From an uncultured Gammaproteobacteria bacterium (lineage in GTDB: Bacteria > Pseudomonadota > Gammaproteobacteria > JBBQDK01), in contig CAVZVG010000003.1 of the NCBI GenBank assembly GCA_963778665.1, positions 192,813 to 256,812 on the forward strand: a DNA stretch of 64,000 nucleotides, given 5' to 3'. A model generated the notes under the pieces. It was not told where the DNA came from, did no database searches, and saw nothing but the letters and a program-made list of their open reading frames with translations. Positions within the stretch are counted from its first letter, which is position 1; each line of letters begins with the position of its first letter. The position numbers and the translations under genes were made by a program. Below, in pieces: positions 8,786 through 23,225 of the stretch.

Positions 8786-10210
8786 TCACAAATCATCAAG
8801 CGGACTCGGCACCGCCAGCCCGCCCCGATGCAGCACATGGGTGTAGATCATGGTGGTGCTGACATCCGCATGACCCAATATCTCCTGCACCAGACGGATG
8901 TCCTTGCCGCTTTCCAGCAAGTGTGTGGCAAACGAATGACGCAAGGTGTGGCTGGACACGCGTTTGGTGATCGCGGCGTCTCGTGCGGCCTGATGAACGG
9001 CTTTTTGCAGGCTGGACTCATGCACGTGATGGCGGCGCTGTTTGCCGGTCGTGAAATCCATCGCGAGGCGCGTCGCGGGAAAGGCGTATTGCCAGGGCCA
9101 GGTAGTGGCGGCTTTGCCCAGTTTTCTTGCCAGCGAAGGTGGTAACAGAACCTCACCGCAACCCAGCGCCAGGTCGTCCTCATGGAGTTTCCTGACCTGC
9201 TCGAGGTAGGCGGTCAACTTCGGCACGAGCTTTTTCGGCAGCGGCACGACTCTGTCCTTGCCGCCTTTGCCCGCGCGGACGGTGATCTGCAGGAAATCGA
9301 AATCGATATCCTGAACCCGCAGCCTGACGCATTCCATGACGCGCATCCCCGTGCCATACATCAACGACGCCATCAGTTGCGGGCGACCGTTCATCGCTGC
9401 CAGCAGCGCTCTCACCTCATGCCTGGATAGAACGCTGGGAATGCGCCGCGGTTTGCGGGCCTGCGTGTAACTGATCGCCTCGTCCATATTGCGGCCAAGC
9501 ACTTCGCGAAACAGGAAGATCAGGGCATTCAGGGCAATCTTCTGTGTGGACGTAGAGACCCGTCTGCGGACGGCGAGATGTTCCAGGTAAGCGCCGATGT
9601 CAGCGCTGCCCAGACCGTCGATGGGTCGCCAGGCATGAAACTGGAGAAAGCGAGTGATCCAGTGCTCATAGGTTTGCTCGGTACGGACTGCCATCTGTCG
9701 CAGCCGAACTGTTTTGACAAACGCCGCATGGCAGTCCGAGAGCGTCGCGCGAAACCGGGTGATCAGTGGGTTGCTGCTCGGCGCGACCAGCAGCGACGGA
9801 TTGGCATCCCGCATGAGGGTGGGGTGATCCGATTGCAATTCCCTGGCGAAAGCCCGCCAATGGTACCAGTCGTAGCCGGTCGCCCATTCGGGTCGTACCA
9901 GTTCACAGAACAGCAAGCGCAAGGAGTCGGCAATTTGACGAAACTGCCATTCCGAGACGCCGGCCATTCTGCCTTTTGCATTCAGATAGTCGTCGATCTG
10001 TGCCGGTGTATGCGCCGCCAAGCGCAGCCCCCGATGGGCCCGTATGTACGCCTCCGCATGTTTGCGGTACCATGGAATCGCCGCCTGGGTAATGCGGGCT
10101 TTTTCAAGGATGGAGAGATAGTTATGCCAAAAACGCTTAACAACAGCAGCATCGGCAACAGAGTGCTCGTCAGACATTGTCATGCCCTCCATGGCAAAGA
10201 CGAAAAACAT
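8786..10210 (-). CDS. intI: integron integrase IntI (tyrosine recombinase) with ~150-aa N-terminal extension
   Basis: C-terminal 320 aa align with IntI1. Shared segments include LMYGTGMRVMECVRLRVQDIDFDF..ITVRAGKGGKDRVVPLP, the IntI-specific extra segment (..PPSLARKLGKAATTWPWQYAFP..TGKQRRHH) and TLRHSFATHLLESGKDIRLVQEILGHADVSTTMIYTHV. attI and an attC array lie immediately downstream on the opposite strand. Confidence 0.9.
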   Translation of the reverse strand: MFFVFAMEGMTMSDEHSVADAAVVKRFWHNYLSILEKARITQAAIPWYRKHAEAYIRAHRGLRLAAHTPAQIDDYLNAKGRMAGVSEWQFRQIADSLRLLFCELVRPEWATGYDWYHWRAFARELQSDHPTLMRDANPSLLVAPSSNPLITRFRATLSDCHAAFVKTVRLRQMAVRTEQTYEHWITRFLQFHAWRPIDGLGSADIGAYLEHLAVRRRVSTSTQKIALNALIFLFREVLGRNMDEAISYTQARKPRRIPSVLSRHEVRALLAAMNGRPQLMASLMYGTGMRVMECVRLRVQDIDFDFLQITVRAGKGGKDRVVPLPKKLVPKLTAYLEQVRKLHEDDLALGCGEVLLPPSLARKLGKAATTWPWQYAFPATRLAMDFTTGKQRRHHVHESSLQKAVHQAARDAAITKRVSSHTLRHSFATHLLESGKDIRLVQEILGHADVSTTMIYTHVLHRGGLAVPSPLDDL

Positions 10211-10295
10211 AAAAACAGGCCAGACTATGTTAACAAGTTAACATAGTCTCCATCTATCTCAATATACATAGTCTCCACCTAATTCACTGTTAGGC
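10211..10295 (+). promoter_or_regulatory. attI recombination site plus divergent promoter region (candidate Pc: TTAACA 10238-43, 17-19 bp, TATACA 10263-68)
   Basis: Perfect palindrome AGACTATGTTAAC-AA-GTTAACATAGTCT at 10222-10249. Direct repeats CATAGTCTCCA at 10243 and 10267. Core GTTAGGC at 10289-10295 abuts the first cassette. The promoter hexamers are a guess. Confidence 0.6.
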
Positions 10296-10351
10296 AGTAA
10301 ATCGGAAATAAATATAAAATTTAAATAATCATTTTGGATGAGGGGAAAGTC

Positions 10352-10486
10352 ATGACAAGTAAAAATATAATTATTTTGTGGCTTGTATTTTTCGCACATA
10401 ACGTAAACGCGTCTTCATATTATCTTGAAAACATGCCGTCCAGGCGACTACATACACTAGTGGCGGCTGGGTGTTACGCGACGTAG
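10352..10486 (+). CDS. cassette 1: small ORF with signal-peptide-like N-terminus (MTSKNIIILWLVFFAHNVNA..); may be the N-terminus of the next ORF via a frameshift
   Basis: ATG at 10352 preceded by GAGGGGAAAG. Shorter than the 60-aa cut-off of the ORF track. Overlaps ORF 10471..10917 in another frame. Confidence 0.3.
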   Translation: MTSKNIIILWLVFFAHNVNASSYYLENMPSRRLHTLVAAGCYAT

Positions 10487-10917
10487 GGTTTATTGGGATT
10501 CGCTTTGATGTGGCAGAAGATGTGCATATAACTGGACTATTAGGGAACCTAGGTGGAAGTGGAAACTTCTTTGGCGCTATTGACAGAATAGTTGCGGGAA
10601 ACAATCTTCCTTCTGTATCGCCAGGATTTAACTCTACGGATGTGCTCGCGTATGGCACTGCGCCCTTTGCTGGCTCAGTGTCATCGGACAAGACCTTACC
10701 AATGAATATTGTGCTCACCCCAGGAAAGTATGTTGCTTTCTTTGGGGGCTTCGGTGGATTTGGCGTTAATGATTTCGGCTGGATGCCGATGGCGAAAAAT
10801 ACAGACGCCAATGGATTCCCTGTCGGATCACAAATTCCGCTGAGCGACGACCTAGAATACAGTTCAGACTCAGGATGGTCTGAATATCCATATTCTGGTG
10901 TAAGGAAGGGTTGCTGA
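10471..10917 (+). CDS. cassette 1: hypothetical Gly/Phe-rich protein (148 aa, GTG start; frame open upstream to 10402)
   Basis: ORF track entry; no recognisable domain. Confidence 0.45.
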   Translation: MLRDVGFIGIRFDVAEDVHITGLLGNLGGSGNFFGAIDRIVAGNNLPSVSPGFNSTDVLAYGTAPFAGSVSSDKTLPMNIVLTPGKYVAFFGGFGGFGVNDFGWMPMAKNTDANGFPVGSQIPLSDDLEYSSDSGWSEYPYSGVRKGC

Positions 10918-11022
10918 CTAGCGTCCCAGTGCCCTCGGCCATATGTCTTTTCCTTTCAGGGTTCAGTTTACTTATATTGCGATCGTGCCATCGCAATATA
11001 GAAGCATTGCTTGATAGGATGT

Positions 11023-11078
11023 CCTAACACGTTGGCCAAGTCGGACGGCTTCGCCGCCGCTTGCCTTGGTCGTTATAC
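11023..11078 (+). repeat. attC 1 (R'' CCTAAC 11023; R' GTTATAC 11072)
   Basis: Paralogous to attC 6 (shared ..ACACGTYGGCCMAGTCGGACGGCTTCGCCGCCGCT..). Confidence 0.7.
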
Positions 11079-11096
11079 GGCAAAGCCCATTCGCTG

Positions 11097-11429
11097 ATGA
11101 CTAAGGGAATAAAGATAGCAATTGTACTAAGCCTAGTAATGGCGATTATAGGTGTCGTATTTGGTGGTCTTGTCAATGGATTCACATTGCGCACAGTTAT
11201 TCTTTATGGAGTAATGGCGGCGTTTTTGGGGGCGGTAGGCGCGCCAGAGATTGAGCCAAAATATTTTAGGTACCCTACAATTTGGCAGGTTCTCTTTTCC
11301 ATAGCAGGTTGTTCTCTTTTCGCTTTTAGTATGCGAGCTCCATTGGAAGGCTATGTCTTAGCTGTCCTTATTGGAGGCTTTCTCGGCTTCACAGCTCATT
11401 ACTGGGTAAAGTATGTTTCATTTCCATAA
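11097..11429 (+). CDS. cassette 2: small integral membrane protein (111 aa, 3-4 TM)
   Basis: ATG 11097 (MTKGIKIAIVLSLVMAIIGVVFGG..). The ORF track's upstream start at 11061 lies inside attC 1. Confidence 0.5.
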   Translation: MTKGIKIAIVLSLVMAIIGVVFGGLVNGFTLRTVILYGVMAAFLGAVGAPEIEPKYFRYPTIWQVLFSIAGCSLFAFSMRAPLEGYVLAVLIGGFLGFTAHYWVKYVSFP

Positions 11430-11439
11430 AATATTGCCA

Positions 11440-11495
11440 TATAACACAAGCTTCCATCGGAGCGGCTTCGTCGTCCACTGAAGCTGGCGTTATGT
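11440..11495 (+). repeat. attC 2 (R'' TATAACA; R' GTTATGT 11489)
   Basis: Complementary R''/R' pair flanking an imperfect palindrome. Confidence 0.7.
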
Positions 11496-11507: not shown

Positions 11508-11753
11508 ATGTCTCATATGAGTCTGCTTGAATGGACAATTACTCATTTTTTTACTGCCCTCTTTTGGCTTTGGATACTTATTTGGGGCGGGGCAAGACGG
11601 ATAGAGGGGTGGACTTCCTGGTTTTTACTCGGGTGGTTTTCTGGTGGATGGAACGCTGAGCAAATTCGCTTGTATGCACTATGCATGCTTGTAGTGCAAT
11701 TTGCCTGGTTTCTATTAGGTGCATTAAACCCACCATGGAGGGGATTCCCATGA
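11508..11753 (+). CDS. cassette 3: small Trp-rich membrane protein (81 aa)
   Basis: ORF track entry; two hydrophobic helices. Confidence 0.45.
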   Translation: MSHMSLLEWTITHFFTALFWLWILIWGGARRIEGWTSWFLLGWFSGGWNAEQIRLYALCMLVVQFAWFLLGALNPPWRGFP

Positions 11754-11761
11754 GAAAGCTA

Positions 11762-11820
11762 CATAACCCATCGCCCCAGTCCGACGCGCTGACGCGCGCG
11801 GCTGAGCTCACCCGTTATGA
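11762..11820 (+). repeat. attC 3 (R'' CATAAC; R' GTTATGA 11814)
   Basis: Paralogous to attC 16 and the remnant at 21521 (shared GACGCGCTGACGCGCG core). Confidence 0.7.
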
Positions 11821-11832: not shown

Positions 11833-12156
11833 ATGAGCCAAGAAGACATTAAGGCGCAGGTGGCGAGAAAGGCTCTCGTTCTTTGTGAAGATCGAATCAA
11901 AAACTATTCGGGTGTCGCAATACCAGAACTTCTTGATTCAATCCAAAGACAGCTTGAGTGGTTAGTTTCATATTTCGAAGGTCGAAACCACGAAAGGGAA
12001 AAACTGCATACCCTTGTATTTGGCCACTATGCCGCGCGAGAGATTGACGAGCGAGATGAAGAGTTTATTAAGGCGCTGTACAAAGCAAATTACGTAGCCT
12101 CACAAACGGCAAAAGGTCTAAAAATTGATTTGGGAGTAATCGAAAGTGACTCATAA
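11833..12156 (+). CDS. cassette 4: hypothetical soluble protein (107 aa)
   Basis: ORF track entry; the stop codon TAA overlaps the R'' CATAAC of attC 4. Confidence 0.45.
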   Translation: MSQEDIKAQVARKALVLCEDRIKNYSGVAIPELLDSIQRQLEWLVSYFEGRNHEREKLHTLVFGHYAAREIDERDEEFIKALYKANYVASQTAKGLKIDLGVIESDS

Positions 12157-12228
12157 CAATCACTTCAACTTCGCTCCCTTCGGTCGCCGGACGCTCCTAT
12201 CGTCGCGCCGGTTAAGTGAGCGTTATGT
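12152..12228 (+). repeat. attC 4 (R'' CATAACA 12152; R' GTTATGT 12222)
   Basis: Paralogous to attC 10 (shared TTCGCTCCCTTCGGTCGCCGGACG). Confidence 0.7.
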
Positions 12229-12241: not shown

Positions 12242-12631
12242 ATGATGGAGCCAGAACAAAAAGAAAGATATGTGCGTTGGCAAAATTACAGAATTACCCA
12301 GCTATCTTTTTCAATAAACCTGTTCTTAGGCTTTGCTGTTGCGTCTTTAGCATATGTAATTAATTTGAAACTTGGTGAAAACCCCAAGAATCCAGAACTC
12401 CTGGTTTTTATTATTAAATGGTGGTCTTGGAGTGCAGCTTTAGGCTGTCTTGCCACAATCTCCAGACTTCTTGATTTCCGGTATACAGCTAAAAAAATTA
12501 AATTTGGTGGTAAATTTAATACCTTCATGGCTAAGTGGCTTGGCCCTGTTACATGGGGGGCATTTTGGGGCCAGTTGCTAACATATATAGGTGGTGCATA
12601 TTGCTTTGTTTCGAGCGTCATAAACACATAA
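12242..12631 (+). CDS. cassette 5: membrane protein (129 aa, ~3 TM)
   Basis: ORF track entry. Confidence 0.45.
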   Translation: MMEPEQKERYVRWQNYRITQLSFSINLFLGFAVASLAYVINLKLGENPKNPELLVFIIKWWSWSAALGCLATISRLLDFRYTAKKIKFGGKFNTFMAKWLGPVTWGAFWGQLLTYIGGAYCFVSSVINT

Positions 12632-12724: not shown

Positions 12725-12961
12725 ATGAAACTCAACAAAGAGGAGTCGAGGAAACGATGGAATGAAATAAGGCAGTTGTGGGCTGAGTGGGATCCAATTG
12801 GAGTTTATGATGCTGATTGGGGTCCGGATGAATACGATAATTATTTAGGCCCATCGTTGCGGTTGCTTGAAGAGGGCGCCAGTAATCAACAAATAACCGA
12901 ATATTTGAGCCAGATCGTAGGCGAATACATGGGGCTTGGGGATAAAGGAATTGAAAATTAA
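12725..12961 (+). CDS. cassette 6: small cytoplasmic protein, DUF1871-like (78 aa)
   Basis: WDPIGVYDADWGPDEYDNYLGP pattern resembles DUF1871 (YugE-like). Confidence 0.4.
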   Translation: MKLNKEESRKRWNEIRQLWAEWDPIGVYDADWGPDEYDNYLGPSLRLLEEGASNQQITEYLSQIVGEYMGLGDKGIEN

Positions 12962-13037
12962 AAACCGGTCTTGTTCGCTGAAAAGCTCCGTTCATGGTAT
13001 GAAAAGATGTGGCCAGGTAGTCATGTTTGAAAAGACA

Positions 13038-13093
13038 GCTAACACGTCGGCCCAGTCGGACGGCTTCGCCGCCGCTGGCCTCAATCGTTAGAA
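13038..13093 (+). repeat. attC 6 (R'' GCTAAC; R' GTTAGAA 13087)
   Basis: Paralogue of attC 1. Confidence 0.7.
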
Positions 13094-13126: not shown

Positions 13127-13768
13127 ATGGGTGTAAATTCCACAACCGAAATGTATGAAAGGGCGCGACAGGATTTATACGCGAGCATCGTCTATTTCGG
13201 AATAATGAATGATCTATTTTATTCTGACACCGACCGATGTCTTAAGGCATGCATAGAAAAGAATGAGGCAATTCAGCGCAATGAGATAGATTATAACGAG
13301 CTTATGTTTTGGTACCGTTCTCTGATTCGTACATTCTTTGCTTATGTTGAAGGAATAACCTTCTTAATGAGGCAAATAATAATATGGGCGCATGAGCGAT
13401 CAGACATCGTGTTAAGCGATATTGAAGTACTGCGATTGCGTGAAGAAAGGCTAGTGCAAGATGGGGAATCAATCAAAACCTTCGCAAAATTCAATACTGT
13501 CCTTGAAAATGTGTCATTAGCATTCAAATATTTCCCTAAAATGTTTCATTCAAATTATCAGCTACAGAAAACCGATTATAGTTGGATTAGTTTTAGGTCA
13601 GCGTTGAAAGCGCGAGATTCAATTACTCATCCAAAACTGATTGAGGACTATTTACTGCCAGCAGAAGTATTGCAGCAACTTCAGGAGTCAATTGTGTGGT
13701 TCCATGAATCGATGGGCGAGCTAACGAAAAGTTGTATAGATGGGAGGAAATTAGGTAATGACTCCTAA
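13127..13768 (+). CDS. cassette 7: hypothetical 213-aa protein with C-terminal Rx4H (ARDSITHP) HEPN-like motif
   Basis: ORF track entry; predicted all-alpha. The motif call is tentative. Confidence 0.45.
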   Translation: MGVNSTTEMYERARQDLYASIVYFGIMNDLFYSDTDRCLKACIEKNEAIQRNEIDYNELMFWYRSLIRTFFAYVEGITFLMRQIIIWAHERSDIVLSDIEVLRLREERLVQDGESIKTFAKFNTVLENVSLAFKYFPKMFHSNYQLQKTDYSWISFRSALKARDSITHPKLIEDYLLPAEVLQQLQESIVWFHESMGELTKSCIDGRKLGNDS

Positions 13769-13837
13769 CAAGTCACTCCTGTCGACCGCCTACGTCGCTG
13801 GAGCTCCTTCGGAGACGGCAGAGTTTAATCGTTATGT
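13764..13837 (+). repeat. attC 7 (R'' CCTAACA; R' GTTATGT 13831)
   Basis: R''/R' pair read directly. Confidence 0.7.
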
Positions 13838-13852: not shown

Positions 13853-14122
13853 ATGGACTTTGAGTGGGACAAGGAAAAGGCCCTTACCAACCACCGTAAG
13901 CATAGCGTCACATTTTTTGAGGCGCGCGAGGCATTTGGTGACGAGTTGTCTCTGACAGTACCGGACCCTGATCACTCTATTGATGAGGATAGGTACTTGA
14001 TTTTCGGGAAATCGTTATCGGGGCGGTACCTTGTCGTGTCATATACTGAAAGAGCAAGCCGAATTCGGCTAATATCTGCTAGAGAAATGACGCCGCACGA
14101 GCGGAAAGCTTATGAAAATTAA
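13853..14122 (+). CDS. brnT: cassette 8: BrnT toxin (DUF497 ribonuclease)
   Basis: MDFEWDKEKALTNHRKHSVTFFEAREAFGDE..DPDHSIDEDRYLIFGKSLSGRYLVVSYTERASRIRLISAREMTPHERKAYE matches the BrnT consensus. Confidence 0.85.
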   Translation: MDFEWDKEKALTNHRKHSVTFFEAREAFGDELSLTVPDPDHSIDEDRYLIFGKSLSGRYLVVSYTERASRIRLISAREMTPHERKAYEN

Positions 14123-14764: not shown

Positions 14765-14769
14765 GGCGA

Positions 14770-16791: not shown

Positions 16792-16819
16792 GGGCGGGAG
16801 TCACTTAATAAAAAATCAT

Positions 16820-17180: not shown

Positions 17181-17187
17181 TCTTGCG

Positions 17188-17335: not shown

Positions 17336-17914
17336 ATGAATATGAGTAAAGTAATCGTAACCGAATTCGTCTCACTCGACGGCATTATTGAGGCCCCAGG
17401 CGGAGGCGAGGGCTTTAAACACGCAGGTTGGACGTTCAAGATCAGTCGCGGGAAGGATGGCGACCAATTCAAGCTCGACGAGACCCGCGACTCCGAGGCT
17501 CTGCTGTTGGGGCGGGTGACATATGAAGGCTTTGCCGCAGCCTGGCCGTCGCTGAAGGGCGACTTCGCTGATAAGTTAAACAGCATGCCCAAGTTCGTCG
17601 TCTCCTCGACACTCAAGGAGCCTGAATGGAACAACTCGACGGTGCTCAAGGGCGACGTGGTGGAGGAGGTCCAGAAGCTAAGGCAGAGGCTGGGTGGGAA
17701 CATCGTCGTCCACGGCAGCGCCCAACTCGTGCAGACGCTTGTCGAACACAACCTCGTTGACGAGTTGCGGCTGATGGTCTTCCCTGTCATCCTCGGGACG
17801 GGCAAGCGCCTCTTTGGCAACATGAGCGACAAAAAGTCCCTTCGGCTAGTCAGCTCGAAGACGGTTGGCGACGGCGTCGTCATCCTCATCTATGAGCTAG
17901 CACGGGATAAGTAA
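17336..17914 (+). CDS. cassette 15: dihydrofolate-reductase-like protein (RibD C-terminal domain family), GC ~55%
   Basis: SKVIVTEFVSLDGIIEAP..LLLGRVTYEGFAAAWP..MPKFVVSSTL..NIVVHGSAQLVQTLVEHNLVDELRLMVFPVILGTGKRLF matches the RibD_C/YwjB-type DHFR-like family. Confidence 0.6.
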   Translation: MNMSKVIVTEFVSLDGIIEAPGGGEGFKHAGWTFKISRGKDGDQFKLDETRDSEALLLGRVTYEGFAAAWPSLKGDFADKLNSMPKFVVSSTLKEPEWNNSTVLKGDVVEEVQKLRQRLGGNIVVHGSAQLVQTLVEHNLVDELRLMVFPVILGTGKRLFGNMSDKKSLRLVSSKTVGDGVVILIYELARDK

Positions 17915-17953
17915 GCAAGCCTTCCCTGAGGCGGCGACCACGAATCCGCAACG

Positions 17954-17985
17954 CCTAACAAAGAGCTGGAGGCGACGCGTTATAT
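17954..17985 (+). repeat. attC 15, atypically short (32 bp; R'' CCTAACA, R' GTTATAT 17979)
   Basis: Resembles only the left half of attC 9; probably internally deleted. Confidence 0.5.
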
Positions 17986-18008
17986 ATAGGGTAATTTGGT
18001 AATCGTCA

Positions 18009-18260
18009 ATGCCTGAAAGAACTCTAATAATTCTTGTAGGATTAATCTTGTCAGTGTTAGTTGGTTGCGTCATGATCAGGAATTGGCCGAAATCTGGGAA
18101 GATGGGTGTAAACACAAAAACAGTACATTGCCCTCGTTGTGGATTGAAAGCGCCGATGGTAAGAAAGCCAAAGAACCTAAGACAGATACTTTGGGGTGGA
18201 TGGACTTGCGAAGGTTGTAATTGTGAGTTCGATAAGTACGGAAATGAAGTTAATACATAA
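18009..18260 (+). CDS. cassette 16: membrane-anchored zinc-ribbon protein (83 aa, CPRC..CEGC)
   Basis: ORF track entry; N-terminal TM helix plus two CxxC pairs. Confidence 0.5.
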   Translation: MPERTLIILVGLILSVLVGCVMIRNWPKSGKMGVNTKTVHCPRCGLKAPMVRKPKNLRQILWGGWTCEGCNCEFDKYGNEVNT

Positions 18261-18329
18261 CAAGTCATTCGAGTACGCCCCTTCGAGGCCGGACGCGCTG
18301 ACGCGCGTCACACAAATCCGAACTTATGC
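18256..18329 (+). repeat. attC 16 with mutated core (R'' CATAACA; R' CTTATGC instead of GTTATG)
   Basis: Paralogue of attC 3. The conserved G of GTT is replaced by C. Confidence 0.55.
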
Positions 18330-18347: not shown

Positions 18348-18743
18348 TTGAAATCACATCCGGTAATCACGCAGATTGAAAGGGCGGATAAAGCAATTGT
18401 TGCTGAAGATTTCGATACGCTTCTCGATATTTATACTGATGATGCAGTACTGGTTGTTGAGCCAGGAAGAAATGCTGTTGGAAAAGATGACATTAGAAAA
18501 GCATTTGAGGCCATAGCGGTATATTTTAGAAATGGGCTGCATGTTGAACAAGATGGCTTGGAGATTCTTGAGTCAGGTAATACTGCCTTAGTATTGGCAA
18601 ATACAATTCTATTAGCGCCTAATTACCCTGCAATAACTCGTAAAGCGACATACGTATTTATTAAGTCCTCTAACGGTAATTGGCTTTGTTCAATAGACAA
18701 TTCATATGGTCATGAAATTATTGGTACAGGAAATAATGCATAA
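18348..18743 (+). CDS. cassette 17: NTF2-like/SnoaL-like (DUF4440-type) protein, TTG start with AAGGAG RBS
   Basis: ..DFDTLLDIYTDDAVLVVEPGRNAVGKDDIRKAFEAI.. is the SnoaL-like fold pattern. Confidence 0.5.
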   Translation: MKSHPVITQIERADKAIVAEDFDTLLDIYTDDAVLVVEPGRNAVGKDDIRKAFEAIAVYFRNGLHVEQDGLEILESGNTALVLANTILLAPNYPAITRKATYVFIKSSNGNWLCSIDNSYGHEIIGTGNNA

Positions 18744-18809
18744 CAAGTCTCTCGTTTGGACGCAAACTACGCTGCGCTTCGTTTGCGCTGAACAGCTTCA
18801 ACGTTAGAC
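18739..18809 (+). repeat. attC 17 (R'' CATAACA; R' GTTAGAC 18803)
   Basis: R''/R' pair read directly. Confidence 0.7.
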
Positions 18810-18853: not shown

Positions 18854-19279
18854 ATGAACGCCACAAAGATCAAAGTAGGTCAATTGGGTATCGACTACAT
18901 CGTGGATGGCTCTCACACGGAGAGTCTCGGAATGTTCGAACTGACAGTGCCTCCAGGATCGAACGTTCCACCGCCGCATAGTCACACCAACAACGACGAA
19001 TGCGTGTATGTCCTCGCCGGAACACTTCGGTACTCGGTCGGAGCTGAGACGCGCGATCTGACAGTAGGGCAAGCGATGAGCACGCCAAGAGGCGCGGTTC
19101 ACGCTTTCTCGAACCCCTTCGCCGAGACCGCTCGCGCCTTGATCGTCATGTCTCCGGACATCGGAGCCCAGTACTTCAAGGACGTCGCTGCGGTGATCAA
19201 TGCCGGAGGGCCTCCGGACAAGGCCGCCCTGGTCTCGGTGATGTCCAGGTATGGGCTTGTCCCGGCTGCGCCGGCGTGA
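18854..19279 (+). CDS. cassette 18: cupin-domain protein (141 aa; GC ~60%)
   Basis: Cupin motifs PPHSHTNNDECVYVLAGT and GAVHAF. Confidence 0.55.
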   Translation: MNATKIKVGQLGIDYIVDGSHTESLGMFELTVPPGSNVPPPHSHTNNDECVYVLAGTLRYSVGAETRDLTVGQAMSTPRGAVHAFSNPFAETARALIVMSPDIGAQYFKDVAAVINAGGPPDKAALVSVMSRYGLVPAAPA

Positions 19280-19349
19280 CCACACCCAAGCCTTCCATCG
19301 AGCGGACGTCCTCCGGCAAGCTTCGTTTGCTTGCCGCCGCCGCTCATGT
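19279..19349 (+). repeat. attC 18 remnant (degenerate; homologous to left half of attC 2)
   Basis: CAAGCCTTCCATCGAGCGG matches CAAGCTTCCATCGGAGCGG of attC 2. R'' is ACCACAC and R' is CTCATGT. Confidence 0.4.
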
Positions 19350-19387
19350 CGAATGTCAGGCCCAGCAAGTACAGAGAGGAGAGCGCA

Positions 19388-19732
19388 ATGAGCAACGAAC
19401 AGGTGGCGCCCGAGACGAAAGGCGTTACGGTGAAGTTACTTTCAACGGTTGATCTTGGCCCTGAGATCGAGGGCATGGCAGGGCGCCAACTTCGAATGCG
19501 TATGGTGACTATCGAGCCTGGAGGCGTCTTCGGCCCGATTCACGACCATAAAGACAGACCAGGCACTGTCTACATACTGCAAGGAACGATCACTGACCAT
19601 CGAAATGGAGTCGCTACGGACTATGGGCCGGGAGTGGGCTGGCCCGAGGATAGGAACACCACACACTGGCTTGAGAACAGAGGAACGATTCCGGCGGTGG
19701 AGATCTCGGTCGATATAGTGAGGCATGAGTAA
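19388..19732 (+). CDS. cassette 19: cupin-domain protein (114 aa from ATG 19388, RBS AGAGGAGAG)
   Basis: GPIHDHKDRPGTVYILQGT..NTTHWLENRG matches the cupin_2 pattern. Confidence 0.55.
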   Translation: MSNEQVAPETKGVTVKLLSTVDLGPEIEGMAGRQLRMRMVTIEPGGVFGPIHDHKDRPGTVYILQGTITDHRNGVATDYGPGVGWPEDRNTTHWLENRGTIPAVEISVDIVRHE

Positions 19733-19762
19733 GCTCAGGCCCGACATCTGACACGGTCGGGT

Positions 19763-19867
19763 CTAACACACGGATCAACCGGACGCGATAGTCGCTACGC
19801 TTTGGTGGACACCCTGAACTAATGATTCAGGAGTGTCAAAGATGCCGAAGCCAGGCGTTGGTTGTTT
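19763..19867 (+). repeat. attC 19 (R'' TCTAACA; R' GTTGGTT/GTTGTTT)
   Basis: Paralogue of the attC-like sequence at 22322-22440 (shared TTTGGTGGACACCYTGAA..GGAGTGTMAAGATGCC). Confidence 0.55.
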
Positions 19868-19885: not shown

Positions 19886-20284
19886 ATGAAGAAATTAAAA
19901 AATACAGCGTACAACGCATTGGTTATAGTAGAAGATATTGGCTTACTGGTCATAGCCATTTCGACAGTCATTGCAATGAGCTTTGAAATTGTATCTATGT
20001 TTGAAGCCATGAAGGTAACCTTGGCAGACCTTTTGTTACTTTTTATATACCTTGAGGTATTGGCAATGATTGGAATCTACCTTAAGTCAGGGCAGCTGCC
20101 TGTTCGTATGCCCCTTTACATTGCAATAGTAGCGGTGGCACGTTACATGATTCTTGATATGAAGAATTTGGATACATTAAGAGTTCTTGGTCTTTCAGGC
20201 GCAGTATTTATTCTTGCTGTATCTATTCTCGCTATTCGATATGGCCATATTAAATTCCCATATGATGATAAAGAAGACAGCTAA
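19886..20284 (+). CDS. psiE: cassette 20: phosphate-starvation-inducible protein PsiE family
   Basis: LFIYLEVLAMIGIYLKSGQLPVRMPLYIAIVAVARYMILD aligns with E. coli PsiE [41 protein letters not shown]. Confidence 0.65.
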   Translation: MKKLKNTAYNALVIVEDIGLLVIAISTVIAMSFEIVSMFEAMKVTLADLLLLFIYLEVLAMIGIYLKSGQLPVRMPLYIAIVAVARYMILDMKNLDTLRVLGLSGAVFILAVSILAIRYGHIKFPYDDKEDS

Positions 20285-20353
20285 CAAGCCAATCAAGTTT
20301 TCCTGTAATCAGCACGGGCTTGGACGTCACAAAAAGCATGGCGCCACTTATTT
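20280..20353 (+). repeat. attC remnant (R'' GCTAACAAGCCAATCAAG.. like attC 10; R' degenerate CTTATTT)
   Basis: Left end is identical to the attC 10 start. The right half is lost or degenerate. Confidence 0.35.
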
Positions 20354-20387
20354 ATGTCGGTTTGCCTTTTTTATATAGACGATATTC

Positions 20388-20561
20388 ATGCAAGCAGAGA
20401 AGCAGTTTCAATTGTTGGAATCAGTCCTTAACAAATGCAAGGGAGAGATTGGTAAAGATTTTGAAAGTTATAGAAATCATGTTTGCCGTATTGTTGATTT
20501 GTCAGGGTGTCCGGCGAGCGTTTCTGCATCGTTTCCCTTGCGGAATATTCTTTATCCGTAG
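20388..20561 (+). CDS. cassette 21: small ORF (57 aa, MQAEKQFQLLESVLNKCKGEIGKDFESYRNHVCRIVDLSGCP..)
   Basis: Below the ORF-track size cut-off; it is the only plausible ORF in this cassette. Confidence 0.3.
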   Translation: MQAEKQFQLLESVLNKCKGEIGKDFESYRNHVCRIVDLSGCPASVSASFPLRNILYP

Positions 20562-20638
20562 AAGGGAAATAATTTCAGTAATGGCAGTCACGCATACTGC
20601 ACGAAACTCCGCAAAGTGGCGCACGCCTTAGGACGCCC

Positions 20639-20722
20639 CATAACAAATCAGTCGAGTATGCCCGCCATTCTGGCGGGGCCCTACGCCTGCTTCGCAGGTG
20701 CGTCTCAATTCAATCGTTAATT
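20639..20722 (+). repeat. attC 21 (R'' CATAACA; R' GTTAATT 20716)
   Basis: R''/R' pair with an internal palindrome. Confidence 0.65.
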
Positions 20723-20746: not shown

Positions 20747-21505
20747 ATGATTATGAAACTGCTCGAATTCCCACATTCTCACTATTGCGAAAAAGCGCGC
20801 TGGGCACTCGACTACAAAGGGATGCCATTTCAGGCCGTGGCAATTATGCCGGGGTTTCACATGATAACGGTACGCAAGTACGCTCCGGATACATCTGTTC
20901 CAGTGTTATTGGACCATGGTGAAGCAGTGCAAGGTTCGAGCGAAATCATAAACTACCTCGAACAGAGGCAGGCGTCATACCCTTTGAATCCTGCGGATGC
21001 TGATGAGCTCCGAGCATGCTTGGAAATAGAGCGCGCGATGGATGAAAGACTTGGGGAGAATATTCGTCAGGTTTTATACAATAGCCTGCTGGCTTACCCG
21101 GATTTTATCCGACATTGCTTTACCCATCCGATGTCCCGATTACGACAACTGATTTTCAGTCTCTTTTACCCGATTCTACGATACAAGATATATCAAACCT
21201 ATGTGATTTCCGCTGCGAAGGTAGAACAGGCGAGACGAGATTTCGATGTTGCCATGAGTGAAATAGAGAACATCCTTGAACAGAGACAGTATCTCGTTGG
21301 TGAGCGATTTACCCGTGCGGACTTGTCGGTAGCATCAATGCTCTCATTGCTTGTTATGCCGCCGGAGCATCCGTTTCCATGGCAAGAAATACCCGATCCG
21401 CAGGCAAGAGACTTTCTTGAAGGGTTTCAAGATCATCCCGTGTCTGAATGGGTTCGTAAAATGTATCGATGCCATCGATTGCGCGAGAGAGCACACTCCG
21501 AATGA
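20747..21505 (+). CDS. cassette 22: glutathione S-transferase family protein
   Basis: N-terminal thioredoxin-like GST fold (KLLEFPHSHYCEKARWALDYKGMPFQAV..VPVLLDHGE) followed by a helical GST C-terminal domain. Confidence 0.6.
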   Translation: MIMKLLEFPHSHYCEKARWALDYKGMPFQAVAIMPGFHMITVRKYAPDTSVPVLLDHGEAVQGSSEIINYLEQRQASYPLNPADADELRACLEIERAMDERLGENIRQVLYNSLLAYPDFIRHCFTHPMSRLRQLIFSLFYPILRYKIYQTYVISAAKVEQARRDFDVAMSEIENILEQRQYLVGERFTRADLSVASMLSLLVMPPEHPFPWQEIPDPQARDFLEGFQDHPVSEWVRKMYRCHRLRERAHSE

Positions 21506-21520
21506 TTAGCCATTCAGCCG

Positions 21521-21578
21521 GCGCGTCAAGTCATTCGCTTAGCTCATTGGGACGCTCAAAAGCTGCGCATTTATCGCG
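21521..21578 (+). repeat. attC 22 remnant (paralogue of attC 16; R'' decayed to GCGTCAA, R' CTTATGC)
   Basis: ..CAAGTCATTCG..CTTATGCGAACC mirrors attC 16. Confidence 0.4.
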
Positions 21579-21622
21579 ACCCTTATGCGAACCTTGGTCG
21601 TCGTGAGAACATCGACCCGATC

Positions 21623-22309
21623 ATGAGACTTCACAAGCTGGCTGACGGAATCTGGGTGCTGGACGGCAACCCCATTTCTTTTGTTACTTTCCCATACGAA
21701 ATACGCTCTACCGTTATCGAAATAGGGGGAGGTGAGCTGTTTATTCATTCTCCGGTGCAATTATCCGCAGTGGATCTATTGAAGACGCTGCCTGGTCAGG
21801 TGAAATACATCGTTTCGCCAAATAAGCTCCACAGTCTGTTTCTTGGGGATTGGAAAAAGGCGTTTCCGGAAGCCAAGCTTTACGCGCCGCCTGGCTTGAA
21901 AGCCAAGCGTCCGAACTTATCGTTCTATAAGGAGCTTGCAGATGAACCGGAACCGGAGTGGCGGGAAGTATTAAAGCAAAAGATAGTTCGAGGAAGTTGG
22001 TTCATGTCGGAAGTCGTTTTTTTTCACGCACCATCGGAAACCCTGATCCTTGGGGATCTGATAGAAAACCACAACCCACTGAGATTTGGGTTGCTTCACC
22101 GAGCAATTGGTTCAGCGAACGCCATGCTCGCGCCAAACGGAACCACGCCGCGCAATTATCGATGGACGTTCTTTCGACGCAAAGAGGTTCGCGAGGATTT
22201 GCAAGAAATTATGAGCTGGAATGCCAAACGCGTTGTTATGTCCCACGGCCCGATCGTGGAAATCGGAGCGCAAGAGTTTTTGAGGAATGCATTTCAATGG
22301 GCGCTGTAG
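21623..22309 (+). CDS. cassette 23: DUF4336 family protein (metallo-beta-lactamase-like fold)
   Basis: ELFIHSPVQL..KYIVSPNKLHSLFLGDWKKAFPEAKLYAPPGL..EVVFFHAPSETLILGDL matches the DUF4336 pattern. Confidence 0.55.
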   Translation: MRLHKLADGIWVLDGNPISFVTFPYEIRSTVIEIGGGELFIHSPVQLSAVDLLKTLPGQVKYIVSPNKLHSLFLGDWKKAFPEAKLYAPPGLKAKRPNLSFYKELADEPEPEWREVLKQKIVRGSWFMSEVVFFHAPSETLILGDLIENHNPLRFGLLHRAIGSANAMLAPNGTTPRNYRWTFFRRKEVREDLQEIMSWNAKRVVMSHGPIVEIGAQEFLRNAFQWAL

Positions 22310-22321
22310 GTCAAATGCGCC

Positions 22322-22440
22322 GCCTGACAAGCAGTTGCAGTGGAGCGTGATAGTTCCTACGGTTTGGTGGACACCTTGAATTGGCGGCTCTGGAGTGTAA
22401 AGATGCCTAAGCAAGGACCCGGAACAACGTATAAGTACAG
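22322..22440 (+). repeat. attC-like remnant (paralogue of attC 19; cores degenerate: CCTGACA .. CGTATAAG)
   Basis: Sequence homology to 19790-19850. Confidence 0.4.
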
Positions 22441-22506
22441 TGAGAAGTTTAAAGCAACCGCAACCATCGACCGCCGAAGAATGCGAATATTGGATTCAGA
22501 GAAACA

Positions 22507-22881
22507 ATGAAATACATCGGCACGGACTTTATTCATATAAGCATCCTGGACACACGATCTGTGCTGGTGGAAGCAATGGATGCAGTTGAAATCGATCTGG
22601 AGAAGGCAAAATACGCGAATCAACTGATCGAAAATGAGATGCCGGGTGACTATGGAATGATAATCGATAGAAAAGCCGATTACTCGATAGTGCCGGTCGA
22701 TGTATACAACATACTCAATAATATTGAGAAACTGAAGGCCATCGCAATCGTGACATATAATAAGAAGAGTTATTTTCCCATATCGATCGAGCAAAAATTA
22801 TATAAAGGCAAGTTGGAAGTGTTTCAATCGATACAACAGGCGCATGAATGGATCGATCAGGTATTGAATGAAACCATCTGA
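22507..22881 (+). CDS. cassette 24: hypothetical protein (124 aa, AT-rich)
   Basis: ORF track entry; no clear attC follows. Confidence 0.4.
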   Translation: MKYIGTDFIHISILDTRSVLVEAMDAVEIDLEKAKYANQLIENEMPGDYGMIIDRKADYSIVPVDVYNILNNIEKLKAIAIVTYNKKSYFPISIEQKLYKGKLEVFQSIQQAHEWIDQVLNETI

Positions 22882-23225
22882 CGATGCGGTTAAGACGCTG
22901 TATACGGACAACCAAGCTGACAATCGCATGCACACTGCCGGAACAAAGAATCGATAGTTTCATGCGCAGCTTTCTGCGCCCGGTGCTGCGGGTAGATATG
23001 TTTCAATCCCATCGCTGCATCGTATCGATGGTGGTTTTATCGGTGAAGCCGGAAGCATAACGATGCAATCCACCGGTCTGGGTTCGGTAGTCCGGCGATT
23101 TCAAGGGATATTACTAAAACACAGCAAGATCCGGGTTGCGGGCGAGTGCTTGATTCTCCATGATTGACTCGTAATGAGGTAAATACCTGTCAGTACGGGA
23201 AATGAAGTGTGAGAGGATTCGCAAG

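What the first reader, a model, noticed from the sequence alone, without database searches (positions are those of the whole stretch)
8786..23225. Chromosomal integron with ~24 cassettes, most of them ORFans
An IntI-type tyrosine recombinase gene is followed on the opposite strand by an attI-like site (GTTAGGC core). A ~12.9-kb array of short + strand ORFs follows, each separated from the next by a 57-105-bp imperfect palindrome that begins YTAAC and ends GTTRRRY, which is the attC architecture. Array GC is ~35-45% (three cassettes reach ~55-60%) against ~64% in the flanks, so the cassette pool is heterogeneous. About 15 of the cassette proteins have no recognisable family: small membrane proteins, secreted proteins, a zinc-ribbon membrane protein and all-alpha proteins. 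These are uncharacterised functions held in an expression/capture platform, and they are the best candidates in this window for novel biology. Candidate roles include stress response, defence and TA-like modules.
Basis: partly seen in the sequence, partly recalled or inferred. Interest (0 to 1): 0.85.

Follow-up and report, generated by a model that had tools for sequence, protein, structure and literature searches.

The report
Chromosomal integron with long-form integrase
This is a genuine but ordinary kind of bacterial gene-capture platform (a chromosomal integron with about 24 small captured genes) in an uncultured sulfur-type gammaproteobacterium. Its one unusual trait is an integrase that carries an extra, duplicated DNA-binding domain.

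Summary
Window 8786-10183(-) encodes an integron integrase: TIGR02249 scores 413 bits against a cutoff of 265, and the IntI-specific insert is present. An attI site follows, with its crossover at GTT 10290-10292. After it comes a 12.6-kb array of about 24 cassettes, all on the + strand.

Sixteen attC sites are intact. A covariance model built only from attC sites of other organisms' integrons recovers all 16 (E 4e-12 to 2e-4) and finds nothing else in the 64 kb. The distal third of the array is decayed. It holds mutated or truncated attC sites and two IS3-family scars.

About 15 cassette products match no Pfam, NCBIfam or PADLOC family. They are not true ORFans, because all nine tested have full-length homologs. 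One of them, C7, is a HEPN-fold protein with an Rx4H motif. Several frameshifts are probably assembly errors.

The flanks are chromosomal (RecQ, DeaD, Ada) and the host is related to Thiohalobacteraceae and Thiogranum. This is a new member of a known kind.

The most unusual feature is the 463-aa long-form IntI, which has a conserved extra N-terminal core-binding-like domain. I found no paper describing it.

The parts
8786..10183 (-). intI, a long-form integron integrase of 463-465 aa
   Evidence: TIGR02249 scores 413 bits against a cutoff of 265. 2a3v aligns to residues 159-463. The catalytic R281, K306, H412, R415, H438 and Y447 are invariant in 37 homologs.
9830..10183 (-). Extra N-terminal domain of IntI (residues 1-118), with a core-binding (SAM-like) fold
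10223..10248 (.). 12+12 bp palindrome GACTATGTTAAC-AA-GTTAACATAGTC between the intI start and attI
   Evidence: Read directly from the sequence. It is not conserved in L001 or L002. Function unknown.
10241..10296 (+). attI: two direct repeats ACATAGTCTCC (10241 and 10266), an L-like CCTAAT, and the R core GTTAGGC with the crossover at G|TT 10290-10292
   Evidence: Repeat family D20. Homology with L001 and L002 ends at GTT. The CTGTT core is conserved in five long-form loci.
10352..11027 (+). Cassette 1 gene: secreted protein with a signal peptide and a PEP-CTERM-like tail. Two 1-nt indels break it in the window.
   Evidence: P0161 and L083 read through both breaks. Homologs of 221-342 aa exist. 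No Pfam family.
11022..11078 (+). attC 1
   Evidence: R2 37.2 bits, E 4e-7.
11097..11429 (+). Cassette 2: small membrane protein, no family
11439..11495 (+). attC 2
   Evidence: R2 26.9 bits, E 1.7e-4.
11508..11753 (+). Cassette 3: small membrane protein, no family
11761..11820 (+). attC 3
   Evidence: R2 E 1e-5.
11833..12156 (+). Cassette 4: Tsi6-family protein (a T6SS immunity family)
   Evidence: Pfam PF18660, 78 bits against a cutoff of 26.9.
12151..12228 (+). attC 4
   Evidence: R2 E 3.8e-8.
12242..12631 (+). Cassette 5: membrane protein, no family, has homologs
   Evidence: P0122, 63% identity
12626..12710 (+). attC 5
   Evidence: R2 57 bits, E 3.8e-12.
12725..13030 (+). Cassette 6: 101-aa family protein interrupted by an in-frame TAA at 12959-12961
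   Evidence: Homologs P0241 and P0261 continue through the stop.
13037..13093 (+). attC 6
   Evidence: R2 E 4.5e-8.
13127..13768 (+). Cassette 7: 213-aa HEPN-fold protein with an invariant R163-x4-H168 motif
13763..13837 (+). attC 7
   Evidence: R2 E 8.4e-9.
13853..14315 (+). Cassette 8: BrnT toxin (13853-14122) plus an overlapping 67-aa putative antitoxin (14112-14315)
   Evidence: Pfam BrnT_toxin, 90 bits. The same gene pair is adjacent in L034.
14310..14397 (+). attC 8
   Evidence: R2 E 3.6e-7.
14414..14764 (+). Cassette 9: no family, has homologs
14769..14831 (+). attC 9
   Evidence: R2 E 3.5e-7.
14844..15218 (+). Cassette 10: no family, has homologs
15213..15290 (+). attC 10
   Evidence: R2 E 9.3e-8.
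15302..15786 (+). Cassette 11: 159-aa protein with an N-terminal TM segment. Split in the window and intact in L083.
   Evidence: PADLOC RTasTM matches the N-terminal 61 aa, E 1e-6. L083 carries it as one ORF.
15787..15863 (+). attC 11
   Evidence: R2 E 7e-9.
15885..16365 (+). Cassette 12: 160-aa two-TM protein, GC 56%. Frameshifted in the window and intact in L083.
16360..16446 (+). attC 12
   Evidence: R2 E 3.2e-8. 81% identical to an attC in L038.
16456..16791 (+). Cassette 13: secreted protein, no family, has homologs
16818..16908 (+). attC 13
   Evidence: R2 E 1.4e-4.
16914..17180 (+). Cassette 14: small membrane protein, no family
17187..17249 (+). attC 14
   Evidence: R2 E 2.2e-9.
17336..17914 (+). 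Cassette 15: RibD_C (dihydrofolate-reductase-like), GC 55%
   Evidence: Pfam, 107 bits.
17915..17987 (+). attC remnants: a 5' half followed by an internally deleted 33-bp attC (17953-17985)
   Evidence: R2 15.8 bits, E 0.11. Read from the sequence.
18009..18260 (+). Cassette 16: TM plus Cys-rich zinc-ribbon-like protein, no family, has homologs
18255..18329 (+). Degenerate attC. The R' core reads CTTATGC, so the crossover G is lost.
   Evidence: R1 19.2 bits, E 0.076. R2 E 2.8.
18348..18743 (+). Cassette 17: DUF4440/SnoaL-like
18738..18809 (+). attC 15 (intact)
   Evidence: R2 E 2.7e-7.
18854..19279 (+). Cassette 18: cupin, GC 60%
   Evidence: Pfam Cupin_2, 65 bits.
19290..19361 (+). Degenerate attC (R'' AAG, R' GTCAGGC)
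   Evidence: R2 18.7 bits, E 0.02.
19388..19732 (+). Cassette 19: cupin
19762..19856 (+). attC 5' half (19762-19785) interrupted by an IS3-family left-end remnant (19786-19856). The attC 3' half is deleted.
   Evidence: Repeat D6. Alignment A2. Homology to the IS end and orfA start in L028.
19886..20284 (+). Cassette 20: PsiE family membrane protein
   Evidence: Pfam, 88 bits.
20279..20366 (+). Degenerate attC
   Evidence: R1 E 0.09. R2 E 0.049.
20320..20631 (+). Cassette 21: broken ORFs. The C-terminal 45 aa resemble a toxin C-terminus. No family hit.
   Evidence: tblastn to L066 E 3e-6
20638..20722 (+). attC 16 (intact)
   Evidence: R2 E 4.9e-6.
20747..21505 (+). Cassette 22: glutathione S-transferase-like
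21520..21610 (+). attC remnant. No covariance-model hit.
   Evidence: Read from the sequence only.
21623..22309 (+). Cassette 23: DUF4336
22317..22461 (+). attC 5' half (R'' CCTGAC) interrupted by a second IS3-family left-end remnant (22348-22461) that includes the first ~35 codons of orfA
22507..22881 (+). Cassette 24: no family, has homologs. Last gene of the array.

Best explanation
This is a complete chromosomal integron in an uncultured gammaproteobacterium related to Thiohalobacteraceae and Thiogranum.

**How it works.**
- The tyrosine recombinase IntI is transcribed leftward.
- IntI recombines the double-stranded attI site (crossover G|TT at 10290-10292) with the folded bottom strand of attC hairpins.
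- New promoter-less cassettes are therefore inserted next to attI.
- attC x attC recombination excises cassettes.
- Genes close to attI are read from a promoter in the intI/attI region. Distal genes are mostly a silent reserve.

**State of the array.**
- The proximal 14 cassettes (10291-17249) have intact attC sites and are presumably still mobile.
- The distal ~10 genes (17250-22890) are largely fixed in place. Their attC sites have lost the crossover G, are internally deleted, or were cut by IS3-family insertions followed by deletions.

**Cargo.** The cargo is typical for environmental integrons:
- a BrnT/BrnA toxin-antitoxin pair;
- a Tsi6-family immunity protein;
- a HEPN-fold putative RNase;
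- small membrane and secreted proteins;
- a few enzymes (RibD_C, two cupins, a GST, DUF4336, a SnoaL-like protein, PsiE).

**What is shown and what is inferred.**
- Shown: IntI family membership and catalytic residues, the attI boundary, attC structure and covariation, and the mobility of one cassette as a unit.
- Inferred: recombination activity, expression from Pc, silence of the distal genes, and the functions of the cassette products.
For: **Integrase.**
- IntI profile at 413 bits, with the additional domain present.
- The catalytic residues are invariant across 37 homologs.

**attI.** The attI boundary is defined by where homology with L001 and L002 ends.

**attC sites.**
- Sixteen attC sites show the R/L-box architecture and compensatory changes.
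- Bottom-strand DNA folds place single-base bulges on the R''/L'' arm.
- The window-derived model finds attC sites upstream of intI in other genomes. 24 of 29 are in the expected orientation.
- The model built only from foreign attC sites recovers all 16 window sites and nothing else below E 2.6.

**Array organisation.**
- All cassette ORFs are on the + strand, and at least 10 have stop codons supplied by the TAA of R''.
- The cassette 7 unit recurs at 78% identity in a different array, with homology starting at the R' core.
- The same C1-C13 order occurs in a public metagenome contig at 97.8% identity.
- GC is 46.6% in the array and 60.5% in the flanks.

**Context.** The neighbours are chromosomal genes.
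Against: - No promoter for the cassettes could be identified. The only + strand consensus match lies inside cassette 1.
- No LexA box lies near intI.
- The attC sites are heterogeneous, with 47% mean column identity. This differs from classical sedentary chromosomal integrons.
- Seven or so boundaries are not functional-looking attC sites.
- The window carries indels, for example a split DeaD and breaks in C1, C11 and C12. Fine details of single genes are therefore uncertain.
- No activity data exist.
- The attC sites used to train R2 were picked with R1, so that test is reciprocal rather than fully independent.
Confidence: 0.93

Rival explanations
1. The array is an inactive fossil. The integron no longer recombines, and the cassettes are ordinary, vertically inherited chromosomal genes separated by decaying repeats.
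For: - The distal third has mutated, truncated or IS-disrupted attC sites.
- C6 has a premature stop.
- Cassette order C1-C13 is identical in a second assembly at 97.8% identity.
- No LexA box or clear promoter was found.
Against: - The intI ORF is intact with all catalytic residues, and it is conserved under constraint.
- The 14 proximal attC sites are intact and score as well as those of other integrons.
- Cassette 7 occurs as a discrete unit in a different array.
- The closest relatives L001 and L002 carry different first cassettes after the same attI.
Confidence: 0.15
2. It is a mobile integron (like classes 1-5) carried on a transposon or plasmid, not a chromosomal one.
For: The attC sites are heterogeneous in length and sequence, as in mobile integrons. 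IS3 remnants are present.
Against: - There are 24 cassettes and no resistance genes.
- No transposase, tni, plasmid replication or transfer genes were seen next to it.
- Housekeeping genes flank it on both sides within 64 kb at uniform 60% GC.
- IntI is only 42-48% identical to any non-clade IntI.
Confidence: 0.04
3. The intergenic palindromes are generic REP/MITE-type repeats or terminators, and the recombinase is an unrelated Xer or phage integrase.
For: Each site is a GC-rich imperfect hairpin placed right after a stop codon, as terminators are.
Against: - The sites are confined to one strand of one 10-kb stretch beside intI, with none elsewhere in the 64 kb.
- They carry the invariant TAAC...GTTA cores, with a covarying L stem and a bulge.
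- The same model finds sites beside intI in other phyla.
- The XerC and XerD profiles score far below their cutoffs.
Confidence: 0.01

Closest known systems
Vibrio cholerae integron integrase VchIntIA/IntI4 (PDB 2a3v) and its chromosomal integron
   Same: - Same enzyme family: phmmer E 4e-83 over residues 159-463, including the IntI-specific helix and patch (W..RRHH) that binds extrahelical attC bases.
- Same layout: a divergent intI, then attI, then a same-strand cassette array with TA cassettes.
   Different: - This IntI has about 155 extra N-terminal residues that form a second core-binding-like domain.
- The attC sites are heterogeneous 57-91-bp sites, not near-identical ~128-bp VCRs.
- There are 24 cassettes rather than ~180.
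Environmental chromosomal integrons with heterogeneous attC sites (I recall Nitrosomonas as an example; Xanthomonas-type decaying arrays are described in bioRxiv 10.1101/2025.06.18.660453, known here from its abstract)
   Same: Chromosomal location, tens of cassettes, mostly uncharacterised cargo, and partial decay of the array.
   Different: A different host lineage (near Thiohalobacteraceae and Thiogranum) and the long-form IntI clade.
Class 1 mobile integron (IntI1/attI1)
   Same: attI has two upstream direct repeats plus a simple site with a GTTRRRY core. The attC sites are of the short ~60-bp type with an R''-L''...L'-R' layout.
   Different: It has no Tn402/tni context, no resistance cassettes and no 3'-CS. 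IntI belongs to a different clade. No Pc was identified.
HEPN-domain toxins (for example SO_3166, PDB 5yep, and the HEPN/MNT systems 7ae2 and 8xdj), compared with cassette 7
   Different: - The protein is longer at 213 aa, with an inserted beta-hairpin.
- No MNT or other partner gene lies in the cassette.
- C7 itself matches no Pfam HEPN model. Only 4 of 35 relatives match, and weakly.
- RNase activity is untested.
IS1111-attC elements and group IIC-attC introns (mobile elements that target attC), compared with the IS scars
   Same: The insertion lies inside the attC stem-loop at a recurrent position. Three independent attC sites share the ...GACG|TGA junction: two in the window and one in Solimonas flava.
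   Different: The inserted element is IS3-family (orfA with an HTH, termini starting TGA), not IS110/IS1111 and not an intron. Here only the left ends remain.

Membership tests
Integron (complete: intI + attI + attC array) | Tyrosine recombinase of the IntI family carrying the IntI-specific additional domain | tested here: met
   TIGR02249 scores 413 bits against a cutoff of 265 in a single stretch. The XerC/D models split around residues 348-390. 2a3v aligns continuously through that insert.
Integron (complete: intI + attI + attC array) | Catalytic R-K-H-R-H-Y residues intact | tested here: met
   R281, K306, H412, R415, H438 and Y447 are invariant in the 37-sequence alignment A3 and align with VchIntIA.
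Integron (complete: intI + attI + attC array) | attI next to intI with a GTTRRRY crossover core | tested here: met
   GTTAGGC lies at 10290-10296. Conservation with L001 and L002 ends exactly after GTT. The CTGTT core is shared by five related loci.
Integron (complete: intI + attI + attC array) | Two or more attC sites (R''-L''...L'-R', imperfect hairpin with extrahelical bases) in one orientation, spaced by cassettes | tested here: met
   There are 16 sites. Structure and covariation are shown and the bulges. The covariance models give E down to 4e-12. IntegronFinder's own model was not available.
Integron (complete: intI + attI + attC array) | Cassette promoter Pc in intI or attI | tested here: inconclusive
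   The consensus scan gives only one weak + strand match, at 10291-10320 inside cassette 1.
Integron (complete: intI + attI + attC array) | IntI-mediated attI x attC and attC x attC recombination | not testable with these tools
   There is only indirect support. The cassette 7 unit occurs in another array, and different first cassettes follow the same attI in relatives.
Sedentary chromosomal integron / superintegron (classical definition) | Chromosomal, non-mobile location | tested here: met
   Housekeeping genes flank it (DeaD, Ada-like, RecQ, glycosyltransferase). No transposition or plasmid genes were found in the flanks examined. This is an inference from 64 kb only.
Sedentary chromosomal integron / superintegron (classical definition) | Large array (more than 20 cassettes) | tested here: met
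   About 24 gene units lie between 10291 and 22890.
Sedentary chromosomal integron / superintegron (classical definition) | Highly similar, species-specific attC repeats | tested here: not met
   Lengths are 57-91 bp and mean column identity is 47%. Only small sub-families exist, for example a1/a6 at 85% and a4/a10 at 73%.
Mobile integron classes 1-5 | Association with a transposon or plasmid, a short array, and resistance cassettes | tested here: not met
   No such genes are present. There are 24 cassettes, and none has a resistance family.
HEPN domain superfamily (cassette 7) | R-x4-6-H motif and an all-alpha HEPN fold | tested here: met
HEPN domain superfamily (cassette 7) | Significant match to a curated HEPN profile | tested here: not met
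   C7 itself has no Pfam hit even at E<=10. Only 4 of 35 relatives hit HEPN_RiboL-PSP or HEPN_Apea, at E 3e-4 to 3e-3.
BrnT/BrnA type II toxin-antitoxin (cassette 8) | BrnT toxin plus an adjacent small antitoxin gene | tested here: met
   BrnT_toxin scores 90 bits. The downstream overlapping 67-aa ORF has no Pfam match, but the same pair is adjacent in L034.
Tyrosine-recombinase core-binding (SAM-like) domain (IntI residues 1-118) | Four-to-five-helix CB fold | tested here: met
   - AF2 pLDDT is above 90.
- At the sequence level the signal is only weak: Pfam SAM_4 E 0.1, hhalign P 0.006, and the domain HMM hits CB domains of short IntIs at E 0.007-0.04.

The most novel reading that the evidence does not exclude
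The integrase belongs to a distinct, apparently undescribed long-form clade of integron integrases. They are about 463 aa, with more than 100 homologs in Chromatiales-type Gammaproteobacteria and related N-domains in Nitrospira and Omnitrophota IntIs.

The clade arose by tandem duplication of the core-binding domain. The extra domain may act as an additional DNA-binding module, for example by recognising the conserved direct repeats of attI much as an arm-binding domain would. That would give these integrons a mechanistically different attI synapse or regulation.
Probability: 0.25. Interest if true: 0.55.

Novelty: new member of a known kind. Interest (0 to 1): 0.3.

Why it matters
As an integron, this adds one more environmental example of a well-understood gene-capture system. 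It does not change the picture. It is still useful in three modest ways.

1. It documents an IntI clade with a second, conserved core-binding-like domain. If that domain binds attI accessory repeats or a host factor, it would be a new variation on how integrases assemble on attI. This is directly testable.

2. It supplies defined cassette families without annotation, including a compact single-gene HEPN-fold protein. Recent work shows that integron cassettes are enriched in small anti-phage systems (bioRxiv 10.1101/2024.07.02.601686 and 10.1101/2024.07.02.601719).

3. It shows array decay in progress, with an IS3-type element that seems to favour attC loops.

Tried and rejected
- **Rfam.** Rfam at gathering thresholds gave no hit in the window. 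Nothing in that library reached threshold for these sites.
- **Crude hairpin scan.** My own AAC...GTT hairpin scan was unspecific, with 45 candidates across the window, so I dropped it in favour of covariance models.
- **Split-half model.** A covariance model from half the sites was abandoned because MAFFT misaligned the L boxes of the short and long sites. I used a reciprocal model built from foreign attC sites instead.
- **Word-index search.** The search of five concatenated unannotated proteins found nothing. This was a false negative of that method. The exhaustive HMMER search found homologs for all of them.
- **Exact IntI look-up.** The exact protein was not on record.
- **LexA box.** A CTGT-N8-ACAG search gave counts no higher than chance and no site near intI.
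- **BLASTP of the IntI N-domain against the rest of IntI.** No signal. Only profile and fold methods show the relationship.
- **PDB sequence searches.** The C7 family profile found nothing.
- **The repeat at 19.8 and 22.4 kb.** I first considered a conserved long attC loop or a small-ORF element. I rejected both once the Solimonas flava locus showed the same sequence continuing into an IS3-family orfA.
- **Literature.** Searches for N-terminally extended integron integrases, and for IS3-family elements that target attC, returned nothing relevant.
- **Remaining unannotated proteins.** Pfam, NCBIfam and PADLOC on the reconstructed C1, C6, C11 and C12 added nothing above threshold.

Full report
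**1. The observation**

*Integrase.*
- The ORF at 8786-10210(-) encodes a tyrosine recombinase.
- It matches NCBIfam TIGR02249 'integron integrase' at 413 bits (cutoff 265) in one stretch, residues 166-474.
- The XerC and XerD models score far below their cutoffs. They split in two around residues 348-390, which is the IntI-specific insert.
- Pfam gives Phage_int_SAM_4 plus Phage_integrase.
- The solved Vibrio cholerae IntI4 (2a3v) aligns continuously to residues 159-463 at E 4e-83. The alignment includes the W...RRHH patch.
- The catalytic R, K, H, R, H and Y are invariant in an alignment with 36 homologs.
- Homologs start at 'MSD', so the true start is 10177 or 10183, after a GGAGG.

*attI.*
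- GTTAGGC lies at 10290-10296.
- Two direct repeats ACATAGTCTCC precede it, at 10241 and 10266.
- In an alignment with the two closest integrons (L001 and L002, IntI 77-78% identical), conservation runs from intI through CTAATTCACTGTT. It stops exactly after GTT, and unrelated first cassettes follow.
- That is the signature of the attI crossover point.
- Five long-form loci share the CTGTT core.

*attC sites.*
- I delimited 16 intact sites of 57-91 bp.
- MAFFT plus RNAalifold recover four invariant R''/R' pairs (TAAC/GTTA), an unpaired spacer, and a six-pair L''/L' stem with one bulged column. All six L pairs show compensatory changes.
- For my 14-pair structure, 79.5% of cells pair, against 21-49% when partners are slid by 1-3 columns. 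0 of 500 shuffles reach the observed pairing or covariation.
- Bottom-strand DNA folds show the hairpin, with single-base bulges on the R''/L'' arm.
- Model R1, built from these sites, finds nothing else in the window below E=3 except three weaker sites at array boundaries.
- On 80 IntI-containing loci from other genomes, R1 finds 29 sites at E<0.01. Of these, 24 are upstream of intI in the expected orientation.
- The reciprocal model R2 was built only from 39 attC sites of 19 other loci. It recovers all 16 window sites with exact ends, at E 4e-12 to 2e-4.
- R2 also picks up 19290-19361 (E 0.02), 20279-20366 (E 0.049) and 17953-17985 (E 0.11). Nothing else in 64 kb on either strand scores below E 2.6.
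- The R2 training sites were selected with R1, so this test is reciprocal rather than fully independent.
- Rfam gave no hit.

*Composition.* The array is 46.6% GC, the individual cassettes are 36-60%, and the flanks are 60.5%.

**2. Anatomy of the array**

- There are about 24 gene units, all on the + strand, each 325-893 bp.
- At least ten ORFs take their stop codon from the TAA of R''.
- The proximal 14 cassettes (10291-17249) each end in an intact attC.
- Beyond 17249, only two attC sites are intact: 18738-18809 and 20638-20722.

The other distal boundaries are degraded as follows:

| Coordinates | State |
|---|---|
| 17915-17987 | attC 5' half, then an internally deleted 33-bp site |
| 18255-18329 | R' core reads CTTATGC, so the crossover G is lost |
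| 19290-19361 | AAC changed to AAG and GTT changed to GTC |
| 20279-20366 | Degenerate |
| 21520-21610 | Degenerate, no model hit |
| 19762-19856 | attC 5' half followed by an IS3 remnant |
| 22317-22461 | attC 5' half followed by an IS3 remnant |

*The two IS3 scars.*
- In each, an attC 5' half is followed by a shared 56-110-nt sequence.
- That sequence matches a stretch of the Solimonas flava integron locus L028.
- In L028 it continues into an ORF (MPMPGPRTTYRFSPEFKATAV...) whose relatives are annotated as IS3-family transposase.
- The two window copies are therefore left-end remnants of an IS3-family element. The rest of each IS and the 3' half of the attC have been deleted.
- All three insertions share the junction ...GACG|TGA in the attC loop. 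This hints at target preference, but three cases do not prove it.

**3. Cargo**

*With a Pfam family above threshold:*

| Cassette | Family |
|---|---|
| C4 | Tsi6 |
| C8 | BrnT, with an overlapping 67-aa partner. The same pair is adjacent in L034. |
| C15 | RibD_C |
| C17 | DUF4440/SnoaL |
| C18, C19 | Cupin_2 |
| C20 | PsiE |
| C22 | GST |
| C23 | DUF4336 |

*Without a family.* Nothing was found in Pfam, NCBIfam or PADLOC for C1, C2, C3, C5, C6, C7, C9, C10, C12, C13, C14, C16, C21 and C24. C11 has only an N-terminal transmembrane match to PADLOC 'RTasTM', at E 1e-6.

*Are they ORFans?*
- The exhaustive HMMER search used nine of these products joined end to end.
- It found 2935 proteins at E<=1e-3.
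- Every segment had full-length homologs of similar size at 40-80% identity.
- These are therefore uncharacterised families, not ORFans.
- An earlier word-index search that found nothing was a false negative.

*Cassette 7, examined further.*
- Its family has invariant R64, R163, H168, P169 and W191, and a motif R-[ND]-x-[IL]-T-H-P-K. This is an R-x4-H motif.
- Four of 35 members weakly hit HEPN_RiboL-PSP or HEPN_Apea.
- The AF2 model is confident, with pLDDT 95 and pTM 0.90.
- I infer a HEPN-type RNase, possibly a toxin or an abortive-infection effector. Activity is untested, and no partner gene lies in the cassette.
- The whole cassette recurs at 78% nucleotide identity in two metagenomic contigs with different neighbours. 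Homology starts at the R' core, position 13086. This is direct evidence that it moves as a cassette.

**4. Sequence quality**

- A public contig (ENA ERZ25039495 contig_83995, locus L083) carries the same attI-C1...C13 array. It is 97.8% identical, with 49 gap columns.
- C11 (159 aa) and C12 (160 aa) are intact in L083 and split in the window.
- Cassette 1 is broken at different places in the two assemblies.
- The reconstructed cassette 1 is a 225-aa protein with a signal peptide and a PEP-CTERM-like tail (VPVPSA, then a hydrophobic stretch, then basic residues). Its stop lies in R''.
- The housekeeping DeaD helicase in the flank is also split between two frames.
- I therefore treat the frameshifts as probable assembly errors.
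- The in-frame TAA in C6 is a substitution and may be real.

**5. Context and host**

- The left flank has a glycosyltransferase, DeaD, ABC ATPase fragments and an HTH protein.
- The right flank has an Ada-like AraC/MGMT gene, a methyltransferase, DUF389 and RecQ.
- RecQ is 96-97% identical to unnamed metagenomic proteins, 80% to a Thiohalobacteraceae MAG and 78% to a Thiogranum MAG.
- IntI's best named relative is from Thiogranum, at 77%.
- No transposition or plasmid genes were seen.
- The locus fits a chromosomal integron. However, the classical 'superintegron' criterion of near-identical attC repeats is not met, because mean column identity is 47%.

**6. The unusual part: a long-form IntI**

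- Typical IntIs have 10-25 residues before the core-binding domain. This one has about 155.
- The extension is conserved across at least 36 sampled homologs of about 463 aa. Its invariant residues include F18, W19, Y22, Y39, G71, R72, W79, R82, Q83, W100, D105 and W106.
- AF2 predicts a five-helix domain for residues 6-116 at pLDDT above 90, followed by a disordered linker.
- At the sequence level the link to the canonical CB domain is weak but consistent and in register:
  - Pfam SAM_4 gives E 0.1 over profile positions 10-84.
  - hhalign gives P 0.006 over 82 ungapped columns.
  - An HMM of the extension hits the CB domain of short IntIs at E 0.007-0.04.
  - The same HMM hits the N-termini of a Nitrospira IntI (6e-11) and an Omnitrophota IntI (2e-6).
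- I conclude that the extension is a second, tandem core-binding-like domain of ancient origin.
- I found no paper describing it. Its role is unknown. Binding to the attI direct repeats is a speculation.

**7. Verdict**

This is a complete chromosomal integron, and most of its cargo is unannotated. That is a known kind of system.
- Integrons occur in about 17% of genomes.
- Cassettes of unknown function are the rule.
- Defence functions in cassettes have been reported.
These statements come from bioRxiv 10.64898/2026.03.17.712381, 10.1101/2024.07.02.601686 and 10.1101/2024.07.02.601719, known here from their abstracts.

Interest is therefore modest. The long-form integrase and the HEPN cassette family are the items worth following up.

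Noticed in passing
window 9830-10183 (-), IntI residues 1-118: IntI has a conserved extra N-terminal domain with a core-binding (SAM-like) fold, so it carries tandem CB domains. More than 100 homologs of ~463 aa share it, and related N-domains occur in Nitrospira and Omnitrophota IntIs. I found no literature on it.
   Followed up: yes
window 19786-19856 and 22348-22461; L028 214-329: Two left-end remnants of an IS3-family element sit inside attC loops at the same junction (...GACG|TGA) as a copy in the Solimonas flava integron. This may be an IS3-type element that targets attC. The rest of each IS and the attC 3' half are deleted.
   Followed up: partly
window 5339-5360 (DeaD), ~10438 and ~10906 (C1), ~15590 (C11), 15885-16365 (C12): Single-base indels split a housekeeping DeaD helicase and several cassette genes. 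The 97.8%-identical contig L083 has indels at different places. Both assemblies probably carry long-read errors, so apparent pseudogenes here are unreliable.
   Followed up: partly
L083 (ENA ERZ25039495 contig_83995), matching window 10290-16632: The same cassette order C1-C13 directly after attI occurs in a public metagenome assembly. The array is therefore shared by a natural population.
   Followed up: partly
window 13127-13768; L081 89-730, L082 135-776: Cassette 7 encodes a HEPN-fold protein with an invariant Rx4H motif. Some relatives are tandem duplications of ~410-460 aa. The cassette recurs as a unit in other arrays.
   Followed up: yes
window 11833-12156: A Tsi6-family (T6SS immunity) gene stands alone as a cassette, with no toxin gene beside it. 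It may be an orphan immunity gene.
   Followed up: no
window 10352-11027: Once two indels are corrected, the first cassette encodes a secreted protein with a PEP-CTERM-like C-terminal anchor. Its homologs are 221-342 aa. This would need an exosortase in the host.
   Followed up: partly
window 12959-12961: There is an in-frame TAA in cassette 6. Homologs read on for ~22 more residues that are still recognisable downstream, so this may be a real nonsense mutation.
   Followed up: partly
window 10223-10248: A perfect 12+12 palindrome, GACTATGTTAAC-AA-GTTAACATAGTC, lies between the intI start and attI and overlaps a promoter-like site for intI. One arm shares ACATAGTC with the attI direct repeats. 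It is not conserved in L001 or L002. No LexA box is nearby.
   Followed up: partly
window 15302-15786: The first 61 residues of cassette 11 (a TM helix plus a coiled segment) match the PADLOC 'RTasTM' model of DRT-associated membrane proteins (E 1e-6). No reverse transcriptase is present.
   Followed up: no
window 17244-19869: Four cassettes have host-like GC of 55-60%: C12 (56%, proximal, with an intact attC), C15 RibD_C, and the two cupins C18 and C19. C15, C18 and C19 sit in the decayed distal part, and C15 and C18 are followed by related degenerate attC 5' halves (CAAGCCTTCC...).
   Followed up: no
(method): The word-index protein search returned nothing for a concatenated query whose parts have homologs at up to 79% identity in the exhaustive search. 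Concatenated queries should not be trusted with that tool.
   Followed up: yes
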